Source of the DNA: Escherichia coli | GTDB taxonomy: Bacteria; Pseudomonadota; Gammaproteobacteria; Enterobacterales; Enterobacteriaceae | Assembly (NCBI RefSeq): GCF_050320075.1 | Contig: NZ_CP190019.1 | Length of the DNA stretch: 64,000 nt | Direction: 5' to 3' (one strand) | Shown here: positions 6,001 to 9,000 of the stretch, in pieces | Position numbering within the stretch: position 1 is the stretch's first letter | Layout: each line of letters starts with the position of its first letter | Made by a program: the position numbers

Positions 6001-9000
6001 CGCTTTTGCAGTAGCTCGTGGATGACGCGCTCGACCGGTTCCGGCAAGCGCCCCTTACCTTTACCTCCACCGGACTGGCCGGGCACCAGATCCGTCACGA
6101 GGCCGCTGCCTTGCCGGGCACGCCGGATCAGAACGTATACCTGGCGCCGAGACAAGCCCAGCGCCTGAGCCGCCATATCGGCCGCTTCGTGCCCGACCGT
6201 CTCCGACTGCGCCAACGGACTGATGATCTCCGCACGACGGCGCGCACGCTCCCAAGCCTCATCAGGCAGAGTGGCCACGCCTTGTTCTGGAATCCGTGGG
6301 GTGTCCGTCGCCATGCTCACCTCGCTTTGGTGCACACGAGTATTGAGCATAGTCGAGATTGGTGCAGATCACTTCTGATATTGAACTGTCAGGAGCTGGC
6401 TGCACAACAGCCATTACGCCCAATCAACTGGTGCAGTCGTCTTCTGAAAATGACACGCAGCGTGGCCATTCCTGACATCCAGTTAGGGTATGCCTTAAAT
6501 TGACGCTCCGACATGAGTTGTGTATTAGATATAACTTATTGTAGTATTTGTAACATTAATCATCTTTTTGACGAAGGAGCCCGTGCTTGAGCTTTCTTGC
6601 CCTATTCGTCAGCCTGCCCACCAAGGCATCGACCGGCCGCATGCGCGTCTGGCGTTCTGTCAAAGCGCAGGGCTGCGCAACGCTGCGCGACGGGGTCTAT
6701 CTGCTGCCCGACTCGGCGGACAGTGCGGCGACGCTGGGCGAAGTTGTGGGAGGAAAATAAAGTGTCATCCTAACTACAGGACCCTGCAACGTAGCAATTC
6801 CTGCAAAAATCCATTTAAAACAATGACTTATTTCAATTCTGCCATCTGCAAGCGTTTTGTGGGGATGGAGGCCGGAATCATTAAAGTATCATCCTAATTT
6901 TCGCTCAACCTTGGAAAATGCTGAGAATCGTAAAAATAAAGTTTCATCCTTTCCGCTACTAGTTCAAGGCTTTCTTCCGGCCGCCGGCAACAACGCTGCT
7001 TGGCTGAGGCGATCCACTTGCGCTACCGCTCACTGATCAGATCGAACTTGAACTCGACGAGCAGCCAACCATCAGGCCGAGCGTGATCGCCAAAAAAAAC
7101 GGATCATGCGAAATCCTTCGTTGAGTTTGGCGCGGGTTTTAGCAAATCAGCTGGCCCGCGATCCGGTTGAGAGTGATCCGAAGCGGTCCTTGACGACCGG
7201 CACAAATCGGCCGATTCTGTTGAAAAAGTAGCTTTAGCGGCAGCCTGCCGATCAGGTGTGCCTGCTGTCGAAGTGGCTGCAAGCCACTTCAAGTTGCCTT
7301 CCGGCGTTTCACTGAGCGTCCTTGCTCAGGTTTAAGGGTTAATTTGAGGGTTTCTGCTCGTAGCAGGCATACCTATCCCGTCAGCGGTGGCCCTTGAGGC
7401 AAAAGCTTGGCCATGCGGCGCAGGTTCTGCACCATCGCAGCCAAGGTGAATTCGTCAGTGGCACCCGTTAGGCCACGCAGTCGTAAACGGTCGAGTTTCA
7501 TGATCCGTTTGAGGTGGGCGAAAAGCATCTCCACCTTCTTTCGTTCGCAGCGAGAGACGAGGTACTCCGGTGTCTTGGCGATGCGTCGAGCCACGTCGCG
7601 GGCAGCCTCATGGATGCTGCGGACGATCTTCCGATTCGGCGTGTTGGGGCAGCATTTCGCTTTCAACGGGCAGGTGGCGCAGTCGGTTTGGCTGGAGCGG
7701 TAAATGACGGTTTTGGCCTTAGTTACCCGCGACCTTTGCTGGGTGAAGGCGCGCCATTCACTGCGTAGCGGTTTGCCGGCTGGGCAGCGATATTCATTGG
7801 CGTCCTGACTCCAGTGAAAGTCGTTACTGGAGAGGCTGTCGTCCTTGCGCTCGGTCTTGTCCCACACCGGCACATGCGGTTCGATGTCCTTTTCTTCGAC
7901 CATCCAGGCCAGCATCGGGGCGGTGCCATAAGCGGTATCGCCGATAAGGCGTTCCGGTGTGAGATCGAACTGCGCCTCGACACGCTCGACCATCGTCCTA
8001 GTCGAATCGACTTCGGCGGTACGGTGCGCCGGGGTAGCTTCCACGTCCATGATCACACCGTGCTCAGTGTCGATCAGGTAATTCGTGGAGTAGGCAAAAA
8101 AGGCCGGGCCACCTGGCGCTGCTGTCCAACGGGACTGAGGATCAGTGAGCGAAATTTTCTTGGGAAGAGCCTCAGCCAGCGCCTCTTCATCAAGGGCTTC
8201 GAGGTACTCGCGCACTGCGCGGCTGCTGAGCTTTGGATCGTTCCAATCGACCTCATCTCCCGCCACCCCACGTTGCCGGCTGGCATCCGCCTTAATGATG
8301 CTGGCGTCGACGGCGAAACCTTCACCCTTGACTAGGCCGGCTGCCATGCAGCGCCGCAGCACCTCATTGAATAACCAGCGGAATAGATCGCTGTCACGAA
8401 AACGCCCATGGCGATTCTTCGAGAAGGTCGAGTGATTGGGGACTTCGTCTTCCAGACCCAACCGGCAGAACCAGCGATAGGCCAGGTTCAGGTGCACCTC
8501 TTCGCACAATCGCCGCTCGGAACGAATGCCATAGCAAGTAGCCGACGACCAGCATGCGCACCATCAACTCCGGGTCAATCGAGGGACGCCCGATGGGGCT
8601 ATAGAAATCTGCCAGGTAGGCACGTAGATCACTGAGATCCAAGCACTGGTCGATGCTGCGCAGGAGATGTTGGGCCGGGACGTGATCTTCCAGATTGAAC
8701 GAGTAGAACAGGCGCTGCTGTCCTCCCGGTAACTGTCCCATCATGCTGTTCGCCCCCACGCTCGCTGACAAAGCAATTTTGCCAACGGCATGGGGAGGCC
8801 GCTACTTTTTCAACAGAATCGGCCGCACACAGCCATTCGGCTCAACAGAACCCTGCCTTTACCCCACCAAACTCCGGAAACTCGCCCGGTAGTCCGTCGG
8901 CTTGAGATGCACATGTTGGCTGAGGTCGCCGGGTAGCGTGAACAGGCGCGGACCGTCCCGAAACTGGAACACGCGATACAGATGGAATTGATCGCCCGCC

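What the first reader, a model, noticed from the sequence alone, without database searches (positions are those of the whole stretch)
6736..6953. Three same-orientation copies of a Tn3-family-IR-like repeat just outside a Tn402 IRt
Within 220 bp there are three imperfect repeats with core AAATAAAGTnTCATCCT; the middle one begins GGGG like a 38-bp Tn3-family IR and the GGAAAATAAAG block matches the Tn21/Tn5393-type IR. Tandem IR-like copies in direct orientation are not the usual single terminal repeat. They could be sub-terminal transposase-binding sites of an unrecognised element, nested insertion scars, or the end of a Tn7/IS21-like element with multiple binding repeats. A short ORF reading into the first repeat ends exactly at it.
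Basis: seen in the sequence. Interest (0 to 1): 0.5.

Follow-up and report, generated by a model that had tools for sequence, protein, structure and literature searches.

The report
Orphan end of Tn7-like transposon Tn6411
The three repeats are the published transposase (TnsB) binding sites at one end of Tn6411, a Tn7-family transposon that carries the gentamicin-resistance gene aac(3)-IId; here only that end survives, cut off from its partner end and its transposase genes, so it is an ordinary, already described relic.

Summary
In detail: three same-orientation repeats with core ATAAAGTnTCATCC lie at 6754-6771, 6878-6895 and 6933-6950 (3 hits against 0.25 expected by chance). They are not Tn3-family inverted repeats; their match to a Tn21-type IR is 13-18 of 38 bases, which is chance level.

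Window 6745-12419 is 99.98% identical to the first 5,675 bp of Tn6411. Tn6411 is a published Tn7-like transposon with tnsABCDE. Its published terminal repeat, TGTGGGAGGAAAATAAAGTGTCATCC, and its TnsB-binding sites 6, 5 and 4 match the window base for base.

This is the tnsA-distal, Tn7L-type end, with three dispersed sites. The tnsA-proximal end has three abutting sites of the same consensus. Four copies that keep both ends elsewhere carry 5-bp target duplications.

In the window the end interrupts a chrB gene 289 bp beyond a Tn402 IRt, which explains the short ORF. The fragment carries ISCfr1, a DUF3883 gene, tmrB and aac(3)-IId. It is cut by IS10 and lies between two direct IS26 copies. The window holds no partner end and no tns genes.

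The same end occurs in 649 plasmids and 183 of 5,426 E. coli genomes, nearly always orphaned.

Verdict: already known, low interest.

The parts
4243..5063 (-). IS26, the left copy of a directly oriented pair that brackets the whole segment
   Evidence: 99.9% identical to the IS26 of L007, in the same orientation as the copy at 13216-14035. Transposase ORF at 4295-5017.
5046..6350 (-). Truncated tniA of a Tn402-type class 1 integron backbone, cut by IS26
   Evidence: 434-aa ORF. Window 5908-6463 is 99.6% identical to the tniA-IRt stretch of In992 in L006. Distant DDE-core similarity to Tn6411 TnsB (29%).
6431..6455 (+). Tn402 IRt, 25 bp
   Evidence: GTGCAGTCGTCTTCTGAAAATGACA read. Identical to the IRt listed for In992 in the S2 Table of PMC11232968.
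6587..6744 (+). 5' fragment (53 codons) of a chrB chromate-resistance gene, interrupted by the transposon end. This is the 'short ORF' of the finding.
   Evidence: tblastn of the 53 aa gives 45-62% identity to the N-termini of annotated ChrB proteins in Ralstonia, Pseudomonas and Klebsiella plasmids. The frame runs on to a TAA at 6758-6760 inside the first repeat.
6745..12419 (+). Left (tnsA-distal) arm of Tn6411, 5,675 bp, orphaned
   Evidence: 99.98% identical to L006 506-6180, the first 5,675 bp of Tn6411 in p201330-IMP. The same holds in L004, L005 and L007.
6745..6770 (+). Terminal 26-bp inverted repeat of Tn6411, TGTGGGAGGAAAATAAAGTGTCATCC, with a 5'-TGT terminus
   Evidence: Identical to the terminal repeat the S2 Table calls 'IRR'. 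Similarity to about 650 plasmids starts exactly here, with at least 9 different outside flanks.
6753..6774 (+). TnsB-binding site 1 of this end, GAAAATAAAGTGTCATCCTAAC (published site 6, in the published 20-bp register 6746-6765)
6877..6898 (+). TnsB-binding site 2, ATCATTAAAGTATCATCCTAAT (published site 5, published register 6870-6889)
6932..6953 (+). TnsB-binding site 3, AAAAATAAAGTTTCATCCTTTC (published site 4, published register 6925-6944)
7208..8834 (-). ISCfr1 (IS1182 family). The transposase reading frame is split in this copy.
   Evidence: The IR CGGCCGATTCTGTTGAAAAAGTAGC starts at about 7208 and its inverse lies at 8802-8825. 94.6% identical to the second ISCfr1 of Tn6411. ORFs 7373-8509 and 8394-8771 overlap, whereas L060 has an intact 1,371-bp gene.
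8859..9995 (-). DUF3883-domain gene (orf1182 of the literature)
   Evidence: Annotated as WP_000080860.1 at the matching position of L001. ORF.
10970..11512 (-). tmrB-like AAA ATPase gene
   Evidence: Annotated as an AAA family ATPase in L001. The only NCBIfam match is weak, to the Gar/GrdA ATP-binding family. Called tmrB in PMC7096625.
11528..12385 (-). aac(3)-IId (aacC2d), aminoglycoside acetyltransferase gene
   Evidence: NCBIfam AAC_3_II, 541 bits against a cutoff of 480. AMRFinder 100% identity in L001.
12420..13215 (+). IS10 fragment that truncates the Tn6411 arm and is itself cut by IS26
   Evidence: CTGATGAATCCCCTAATGA terminus read. IS4-family transposase match, 221 bits. Rfam RNA-OUT at 12466-12535.
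13216..14035 (-). IS26, the right copy, in the same orientation as the left copy

Best explanation
The three repeats are the TnsB-binding sites of the tnsA-distal (Tn7L-equivalent) end of Tn6411, a Tn7-family transposon.

In an intact element, the DDE transposase TnsB binds these roughly 22-bp sites (consensus ACAAATAAAGTTTCATCCTAAC). It also binds the three abutting, oppositely oriented sites at the tnsA-proximal end. TnsB pairs the two ends and, together with TnsA and TnsC, cuts at the 5'-TGT...ACA-3' termini. The element is then inserted with a 5-bp target duplication. TnsD or TnsE chooses the target.

Several direct-orientation sites within one end is therefore the normal design of this family.

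In this window a Tn6411 carrying ISCfr1, the DUF3883 gene, tmrB and aac(3)-IId once inserted into a chrB gene lying 289 bp outside a Tn402 IRt. Later the element lost everything beyond its first 5.7 kb, through an IS10 insertion followed by IS26-mediated truncation.

What remains is an orphan end. It cannot transpose on its own and now moves only passively, for example inside the segment bracketed by the two direct IS26 copies.

Shown here: sequence identity to Tn6411, the site architecture, target duplications around copies elsewhere that keep both ends, and the absence of a partner end and of tns genes in the window. Inferred from Tn7 biochemistry: TnsB binding and the cleavage chemistry. 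Also inferred: the order of the deletion events.
For: - **Identity.** Window 6745-12419 is 99.98% identical to Tn6411 positions 1-5675 in p201330-IMP.
- **Published annotation.** The S2 Table of PMC11232968 lists the terminal repeat TGTGGGAGGAAAATAAAGTGTCATCC and TnsB sites at Tn6411 positions 2-21, 126-145 and 181-200. Their sequences equal window 6745-6770, 6746-6765, 6870-6889 and 6925-6944.
- **Transposition genes.** Complete Tn6411 copies encode TnsA, TnsB, TnsC, TnsD and TnsE next to the other end. TnsB is 44% and TnsA 43% identical to those of Tn7 on R721.
- **Site conservation.** The six sites share a core that is invariant at most positions.
- **Architecture.** Three dispersed sites at the distal end and abutting sites at the tnsA end mirror Tn7L and Tn7R read from R721.
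- **Target duplications.** Copies with both ends carry 5-bp duplications: CCTAC (L006), GTTGC (L007), TTGAT (L068) and TGTGG (L066).
- **A true terminus.** At least 9 different outside flanks in plasmids, and more in genomes, all abut exactly at TGTGGG.
- **Native end.** Environmental relatives (a Halioglobus MAG and P. mendocina) share only the first 466-482 bp. They diverge where ISCfr1 begins, so the segment holding the sites belongs to the transposon itself.
- **Orphan status.** The window has no inverted partner and no tns genes.
Against: - TnsB binding to these particular sites has not been shown experimentally, either here or, as far as I found, in the literature. It rests on analogy with Tn7.
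- The 5-bp duplication cannot be checked for the chrB insertion, because the partner end and the rest of chrB are missing.
- The source paper calls this end 'IRR', while its architecture is that of Tn7L. This is a naming discrepancy, not a factual one.
- The literature describes the aacC2-tmrB region as derived from Tn2 and later integrated into Tn6411, which is the opposite direction of derivation to the one implied here.
Confidence: 0.95

Rival explanations
1. The repeats are terminal or sub-terminal inverted repeats of a Tn3-family element (Tn21/Tn5393 type), present as tandem copies or as nested insertion scars.
For: An 11-base block, GGAAAATAAAG, is shared with Tn21-type IRs (seen in L061). 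The middle copy is preceded by GGGG.
Against: Only 13-18 of 38 positions match the Tn21-type IR and 10-13 of 38 match the window's Tn2/Tn3 IR. In the window, 311 other 38-mers reach 18 or more matches by chance. The comparative boundary is at TGTGGG (6745), not at a GGGG. The region matches a Tn7-like element in full.
Confidence: 0.01
2. The repeats are the multi-repeat end of an IS21-like or Tn402/Tn5053-like element, possibly related to the adjacent Tn402 IRt.
For: Those families also have several repeats in their ends and TG termini (general knowledge). A Tn402 IRt and a truncated tniA lie 290 bp away. TniA shows 29% core similarity to Tn6411 TnsB.
Against: The IRt is a separate 25-bp sequence at 6431-6455, unrelated to the repeat core. 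The genes linked to this terminus in copies that keep both ends are tnsABCDE, not istAB or tniABQR as the mobilising set.
Confidence: 0.01
3. The end is not a dead relic. It is still a working cis site, for example one that gives the plasmid target immunity against incoming Tn6411-family elements, or one that can be re-mobilised when a compatible right end and tnsABC are supplied elsewhere in the cell.
For: All three sites and the terminal 26 bp are intact and 100% identical to those of complete elements. For Tn7, TnsB-binding sites in a target are known to confer target immunity (established knowledge, not tested here). The orphan end persists unchanged in 641 plasmids at 99% identity or more.
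Against: There is no partner end in 64 kb. The exact right end occurs in only 1 of 5,426 complete E. coli genomes, against 183 with the left end. Encounters with the cognate machinery should therefore be rare in this host. The conservation is equally explained by the recent spread of a linked resistance gene.
Confidence: 0.15
4. The repeats are chance matches in A+T-rich, low-complexity DNA.
For: The core is A/T-rich and short.
Against: There are 3 hits against 0.25 expected, and no shuffle in 100 reached 3. The same core recurs three more times at the other end of the element and in dozens of related elements.
Confidence: 0.005

Closest known systems
Tn6411, a Tn7-like unit transposon of Pseudomonas aeruginosa and of Acinetobacter plasmids (PMC11232968; first reported by Zhan et al. 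2018, as cited in PMC8012812)
   Same: Window 6745-12419 equals its first 5,675 bp at 99.98% identity. That stretch includes the 26-bp terminal repeat, the three TnsB sites, ISCfr1, the DUF3883 gene, tmrB and aac(3)-IId.
   Different: Only the tnsA-distal arm is present. The backbone, In992, tnsEDCBA and the other end are missing. The arm is cut by IS10 and IS26. The ISCfr1 transposase frame is split. The insertion site (chrB) differs from those of the described copies.
Tn7 left end (Tn7L), read here from plasmid R721
   Same: A 5'-TGTGGG terminus; three dispersed, same-orientation TnsB sites spread over about 150-210 bp at the tnsA-distal end; closely packed sites at the tnsA end; a 5-bp target duplication (CGCAC in R721); and the gene order tnsABCDE.
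   Different: The site sequence differs: ACAAAATAGTTGGGAACTGG in Tn7L against AAATAAAGTnTCATCC here. The spacing differs: site starts near 10, 73 and 129 in Tn7L against 9, 133 and 188 here. The proteins are only 43-44% identical. The cargo is different.
The 'aacC2-tmrB region' of Enterobacterales plasmids (pEl1573, JX101693; pCTX-M3)
   Same: It is the same module: aac(3)-IId, tmrB, orf192, orf228, orf1182 and ISCfr1, followed by the same 463-bp end.
   Different: In the common form the end abuts Tn2 just upstream of blaTEM-1 (…cacgaggcc|TGTGGG; identical in 5 of 5 loci checked). In the window it abuts chrB, a junction seen in 42 plasmids. The literature treats the region as a Tn2 derivative. 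The transposon terminus and TnsB sites inside it show that it is a piece of a Tn7-like element.
Tn7-like element carrying the clpK heat-resistance locus in Klebsiella and Enterobacter plasmids (L008)
   Same: Its tnsA-proximal end is 96% identical to that of Tn6411, and it has tnsA, tnsB, tnsC and tnsE.
   Different: The cargo is different. Its distal end does not match the TGTGGGNNGNAAATAAAGTNTCATCC pattern within the fetched locus.

Membership tests
Tn7 family (heteromeric TnsA/TnsB transposase elements) | 5'-TGT...ACA-3' termini within imperfect terminal inverted repeats | tested here: met
   The window end is TGTGGGAGGAAAATAAAGTGTCATCC. The partner end in complete copies, read inwards, is TGTGGGATGCAAATAAAGTTTCATCC.
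Tn7 family (heteromeric TnsA/TnsB transposase elements) | Several roughly 20-22-bp TnsB-binding repeats in each end: dispersed at the tnsA-distal end, closely packed at the tnsA-proximal end, and inverted between the two ends | tested here: met
   Three sites start at element positions 9, 133 and 188 in the window end. Three sites in a 20-bp phase lie at the other end. The Tn7L/Tn7R layout in R721 is the same.
Tn7 family (heteromeric TnsA/TnsB transposase elements) | 5-bp target-site duplication | tested here: met
   CCTAC, GTTGC, TTGAT and TGTGG flank four independent copies that keep both ends. This cannot be tested for the window's own insertion because the partner end is missing.
Tn7 family (heteromeric TnsA/TnsB transposase elements) | tnsA, tnsB and tnsC core genes plus the target selectors tnsD and tnsE | tested here: met
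   All are present in complete Tn6411 copies (L006, L068). TnsB is 44% and TnsA 43% identical to the Tn7 proteins. They are absent from the window itself, so the window holds a fragment, not a member capable of transposition.
Tn7 family (heteromeric TnsA/TnsB transposase elements) | TnsD-directed insertion downstream of glmS (attTn7) | not tested
   Reported for chromosomal Tn6411 in PMC11232968. Not examined here.
Tn7 family (heteromeric TnsA/TnsB transposase elements) | Physical binding of TnsB to the repeats | not testable with these tools
   Needs a footprinting or gel-shift experiment.
Tn3 family | A roughly 38-bp terminal IR beginning GGGG and ending TAAG, recognisably similar to known family IRs | tested here: not met
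   13-18 of 38 positions match a Tn21-type IR and 10-13 of 38 match the window's Tn2/Tn3 IR (17 of 38 for the middle copy in the GGGG register), all at chance level. The true boundary is at TGTGGG.
Tn402/Tn5053 family | 25-bp IRi/IRt (TGTCGTTTTCAGAAGACGGCTGCAC) with tniABQR | tested here: not met
   The IRt is a distinct sequence at 6431-6455. The repeats share no similarity with it.

The most novel reading that the evidence does not exclude
The globally spread aac(3)-IId-tmrB-ISCfr1 module of Enterobacterales plasmids is a severed arm of the Tn7-like transposon Tn6411, not a Tn2 derivative that later entered Tn6411 as the literature states. On this reading it was delivered by genuine Tn7-type transposition at least twice, once into Tn2 and once into chrB. 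Its intact, unannotated three-site TnsB array may still act in cis, for example as a target-immunity signal that shields hundreds of resistance plasmids from further Tn6411-family insertions.
Probability: 0.2. Interest if true: 0.35.

Novelty: already known. Interest (0 to 1): 0.12.

Why it matters
For annotation, a 463-bp stretch present in 649 sequenced plasmids and about 3% of complete E. coli genomes carried no feature in any record I listed. It can now be labelled as the Tn6411 tnsA-distal end with three TnsB sites.

For the history of a common gentamicin-resistance module, the exact transposon terminus at its edge shows that a Tn7-family element was the vehicle. That element is native to Pseudomonas-like and marine Gammaproteobacteria, and it brought aac(3)-IId onto these plasmids before IS26 and IS10 cut it down.

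None of this changes what is known about how Tn7-like elements work.

Tried and rejected
- **Tn3-family IR reading.** I searched the window for a Tn21 IR and found none. I took a real Tn21-type IR from L061 and the window's own Tn2 IR and scored the three repeats against them. The scores were at chance level, so I rejected this reading.
- **NCBIfam on the 57-aa ORF.** No hit. tblastn against plasmids then identified it as a chrB 5' fragment.
- **Rfam scan of the whole window.** Nothing in 6456-7207; only the IS10 RNA-OUT and unrelated plasmid RNAs.
- **Partner end and tns genes in the window.** None found.
- **Literature.** The Acinetobacter mega-plasmid paper that reports pWM98B does not mention Tn7. 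The GR13 plasmid paper treats the aacC2d segment as a dif module and does not mention the Tn7-like end. A search for 'Tn7-like' plus 'MITE' gave no paper on miniature Tn7-type elements.
- I first recalled a Tn7 end sequence as Tn7L. Its position next to tnsA in R721 showed it is Tn7R. The true Tn7L was then read from the other end of the same copy.
- **Reciprocal chrB junction.** I did not find the CCCACA|GAAGT junction in the few right-end loci I fetched.
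Full report
**Observation.**
They are AAAATAAAGTGTCATCCT at 6754-6771, TCATTAAAGTATCATCCT at 6878-6895 and AAAATAAAGTTTCATCCT at 6933-6950, all on the + strand. A search for ATAAAGTNTCATCCT with up to two mismatches finds only these three sites in the 64-kb window. The chance expectation is 0.25, and none of 100 shuffles reached three. No inverted copy exists in the window. The Tn402 IRt, GTGCAGTCGTCTTCTGAAAATGACA, lies at 6431-6455, so the repeats do sit just outside it.

**Where the element starts.**
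A megablast of 6456-7372 against 72,556 plasmids hit 718 records. Only 42 covered the whole query; most matches began at query position 290, which is window 6745. Reading the junctions in fetched loci showed that unrelated left flanks all meet the shared sequence exactly at TGTGGGAGG:
- chrB in the window;
- a mer-operon gene in pPp47;
- unrelated sequence in pHD6515-VIM, pBJAB0715, pDETAB2/pE47, p201330-IMP, the AR434 plasmid and pSE5419-2;
- Tn2 upstream of blaTEM-1 in five of five typical Enterobacterales plasmids.

This is the behaviour of a transposon terminus. A 5'-TGTGGG terminus followed by several sub-terminal repeats is the signature of Tn7-like elements.

**Identification.**
Literature searches on ISCfr1 and Tn6411 led to PMC11232968. 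Its S2 Table lists, for the Tn7-like transposon Tn6411:
- a terminal repeat, TGTGGGAGGAAAATAAAGTGTCATCC;
- TnsB-binding sites GTGGGAGGAAAATAAAGTGT (positions 2-21), GGCCGGAATCATTAAAGTAT (126-145) and GAATCGTAAAAATAAAGTTT (181-200).

These are identical to window 6745-6770, 6746-6765, 6870-6889 and 6925-6944.

I then fetched Tn6411 from p201330-IMP. Window 6745-12419 aligns to its first 5,675 bp at 99.98% identity. The complete element continues through a backbone and the integron In992 to tnsE, tnsD, tnsC, tnsB and tnsA, and ends at the second terminus.

**Family membership, tested.**
- *Proteins.* Tn6411 TnsB is 44% identical, end to end, to Tn7 TnsB from plasmid R721. TnsA is 43% identical.
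- *Site conservation.* In a 22-nt register the six sites of Tn6411 give the consensus ACAAATAAAGTTTCATCCTAAC, and the core is almost invariant.
- *Architecture.* The window end has three dispersed sites starting at element positions 9, 133 and 188. The tnsA-proximal end has three abutting sites in a 20-bp phase. Tn7 in R721 has the same layout: three dispersed sites in Tn7L and packed sites in Tn7R. The window feature is therefore the Tn7L-equivalent end, although the source paper labels it 'IRR'.
- *Target duplications.* Four independent copies that keep both ends are flanked by perfect 5-bp duplications: CCTAC, GTTGC, TTGAT and TGTGG.

**The Tn3-family idea fails.**
I aligned the three 38-mers on their ATAAAG cores. 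They match a genuine Tn21-type IR (from L061) at 13-18 of 38 positions and the window's own Tn2 IR at 10-13 of 38. In the window, 311 other 38-mers do as well as 18 of 38 by chance. The shared GGAAAATAAAG block is a coincidence of A-rich sequence.

**Context in the window.**
- *The short ORF.* The ORF (6587-6760) is the first 53 codons of a chrB chromate-resistance gene, 45-62% identical to annotated ChrB N-termini. It runs into the element and stops at a TAA inside the first TnsB site. A Tn6411 therefore inserted into chrB, 289 bp outside the IRt of a class 1 integron whose tniA is itself cut by IS26.
- *Cargo.* Inside the arm lie ISCfr1 (about 7208-8834, with a split transposase frame), a DUF3883 gene, two small ORFs, tmrB and aac(3)-IId.
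- *Truncation.* At 12420 an IS10 end (RNA-OUT at 12466-12535) truncates the arm, and IS26 truncates the IS10 at 13215/13216.
- *Passive mobility.* Two IS26 copies in direct orientation (4243-5063 and 13216-14035) bracket the whole segment. Passive movement as an IS26-bounded unit is the likely present means of mobility; this is inference.
- *Orphan status.* The window has no partner end and no tnsABCDE. The only hit is the expected distant DDE-core similarity between TnsB and TniA.

**Which part is native to the transposon.**
A scan of one genome per species for either Tn6411 terminus returned 50 stretches in diverse Gammaproteobacteria. A Halioglobus MAG and Pseudomonas mendocina EF27 share only the first 466-482 bp of the end. 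They diverge exactly where ISCfr1 begins in the window. The same Halioglobus MAG also holds 7.4 kb of the tns side at 99.8% identity.

So the roughly 465-bp segment with the three sites belongs to the transposon, and ISCfr1 plus the resistance genes are cargo. The aac(3)-IId-bearing form is found at six or more distinct sites. This argues that the 'aacC2-tmrB region' of enterobacterial plasmids is a severed arm of Tn6411. It is not a Tn2-derived module that later entered Tn6411, as stated in PMC7096625 and PMC11232968. This is a modest correction, not a new kind of element.

**Distribution.**

| Sequence | Plasmid records | Complete E. coli genomes (of 5,426) |
|---|---|---|
| 463-bp tnsA-distal end (window 6745-7207) | 649 (641 at ≥99% identity) | 183 |
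| 73-bp tnsA-proximal end, any match | 43 | 8 |
| 73-bp tnsA-proximal end, 100% identical | 20 | 1 |

No feature was annotated under the distal-end match in any record listed. Nearly all copies are therefore orphans, like the one in the window.

**Mechanism.**
*Shown here:* identity to Tn6411, the site architecture, target duplications around copies elsewhere that keep both ends, and orphan status in the window.

*Inferred from Tn7 biochemistry (established knowledge):* TnsB binds the sites and pairs the left and right ends. With TnsA and TnsC it excises the element at the TGT/ACA termini and inserts it with a 5-bp duplication. TnsD or TnsE selects the target. An isolated left end cannot transpose.

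*Possible but untested:* the intact site array may still confer target immunity on its host plasmid.

**Verdict.**
The headline interpretation (Tn3-like) is rejected, and the listed alternative (a Tn7-like end with multiple binding sites) is correct. The feature is already described in the literature and is of low interest.

Noticed in passing
L028 6614-6941; L029 3549-3876; L053 662-988; L054 4188-4515; L055 8834-9160 (Pseudomonas alcaligenes NBRC 14159 and P. oleovorans DSM 1045): 327-328-bp non-coding elements with two inverted Tn7-type termini (TGTGGGATGCAAATAAAGTTTCATCC), further internal TnsB-type sites and no ORF. Four of the five have perfect 5-bp target duplications (CCCGC, GAAGT, ACCGC, TGCGG). 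They look like natural miniature (MITE-like) Tn7-family elements mobilised in trans. A literature search for 'Tn7-like' plus 'MITE' found no description.
   Followed up: partly
L039-L050 (Pseudomonas sp. Ga0074129 MAG): At least five Tn6411-type distal ends and four tnsA-proximal ends sit at contig edges, each with a different outside flank. This suggests a multicopy Tn6411-like (or miniature) element that broke the assembly.
   Followed up: no
L031 1717-1773 (Pseudomonas sp. NW5): Two Tn7-like termini lie back to back, only 5 bp (CACGG) apart. This means two Tn7-family elements are inserted immediately next to each other.
   Followed up: no
window 7373-8771: The ISCfr1 transposase gene is split into two overlapping ORFs (8394-8771 and 7373-8509). 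Other plasmids (e.g. L060) carry an intact 1,371-bp gene, so this copy probably has a frameshift.
   Followed up: partly
window 12420-13215: An IS10 fragment with its RNA-OUT antisense RNA (12466-12535) truncates the Tn6411 arm and is itself cut by IS26. The same 796 bp also occur upstream of merR in pPp47 (L002 9841-10636).
   Followed up: partly
L059-L063 position 2501 (five Enterobacterales plasmids): The commonest context of the same end is a single junction with Tn2, about 190 bp upstream of blaTEM-1 (…cacgaggcc|TGTGGG). It is identical in all five loci checked, so one ancestral insertion has spread widely. The window's chrB junction is a second, rarer event seen in 42 plasmids.
   Followed up: partly
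L003 11343-11719 and L035 3408-1618: A 96%-identical variant of the Tn6411 distal end, with an 11-12-bp insertion and an ISL3-family insertion after element position 366. It occurs at two different outside flanks, in pHD6515-VIM and in P. mendocina EF27, and lacks the aac(3)-IId cargo.
   Followed up: partly
window 14890-17188: Rfam finds group II intron domains (RF02012 at 14890-15039 and RF00029 at 17112-17188) flanking a 555-aa ORF (15440-17107), which indicates a group II intron in the resistance region. Other Rfam hits are CopA, sok and tra antisense RNAs typical of an IncF plasmid.
   Followed up: no
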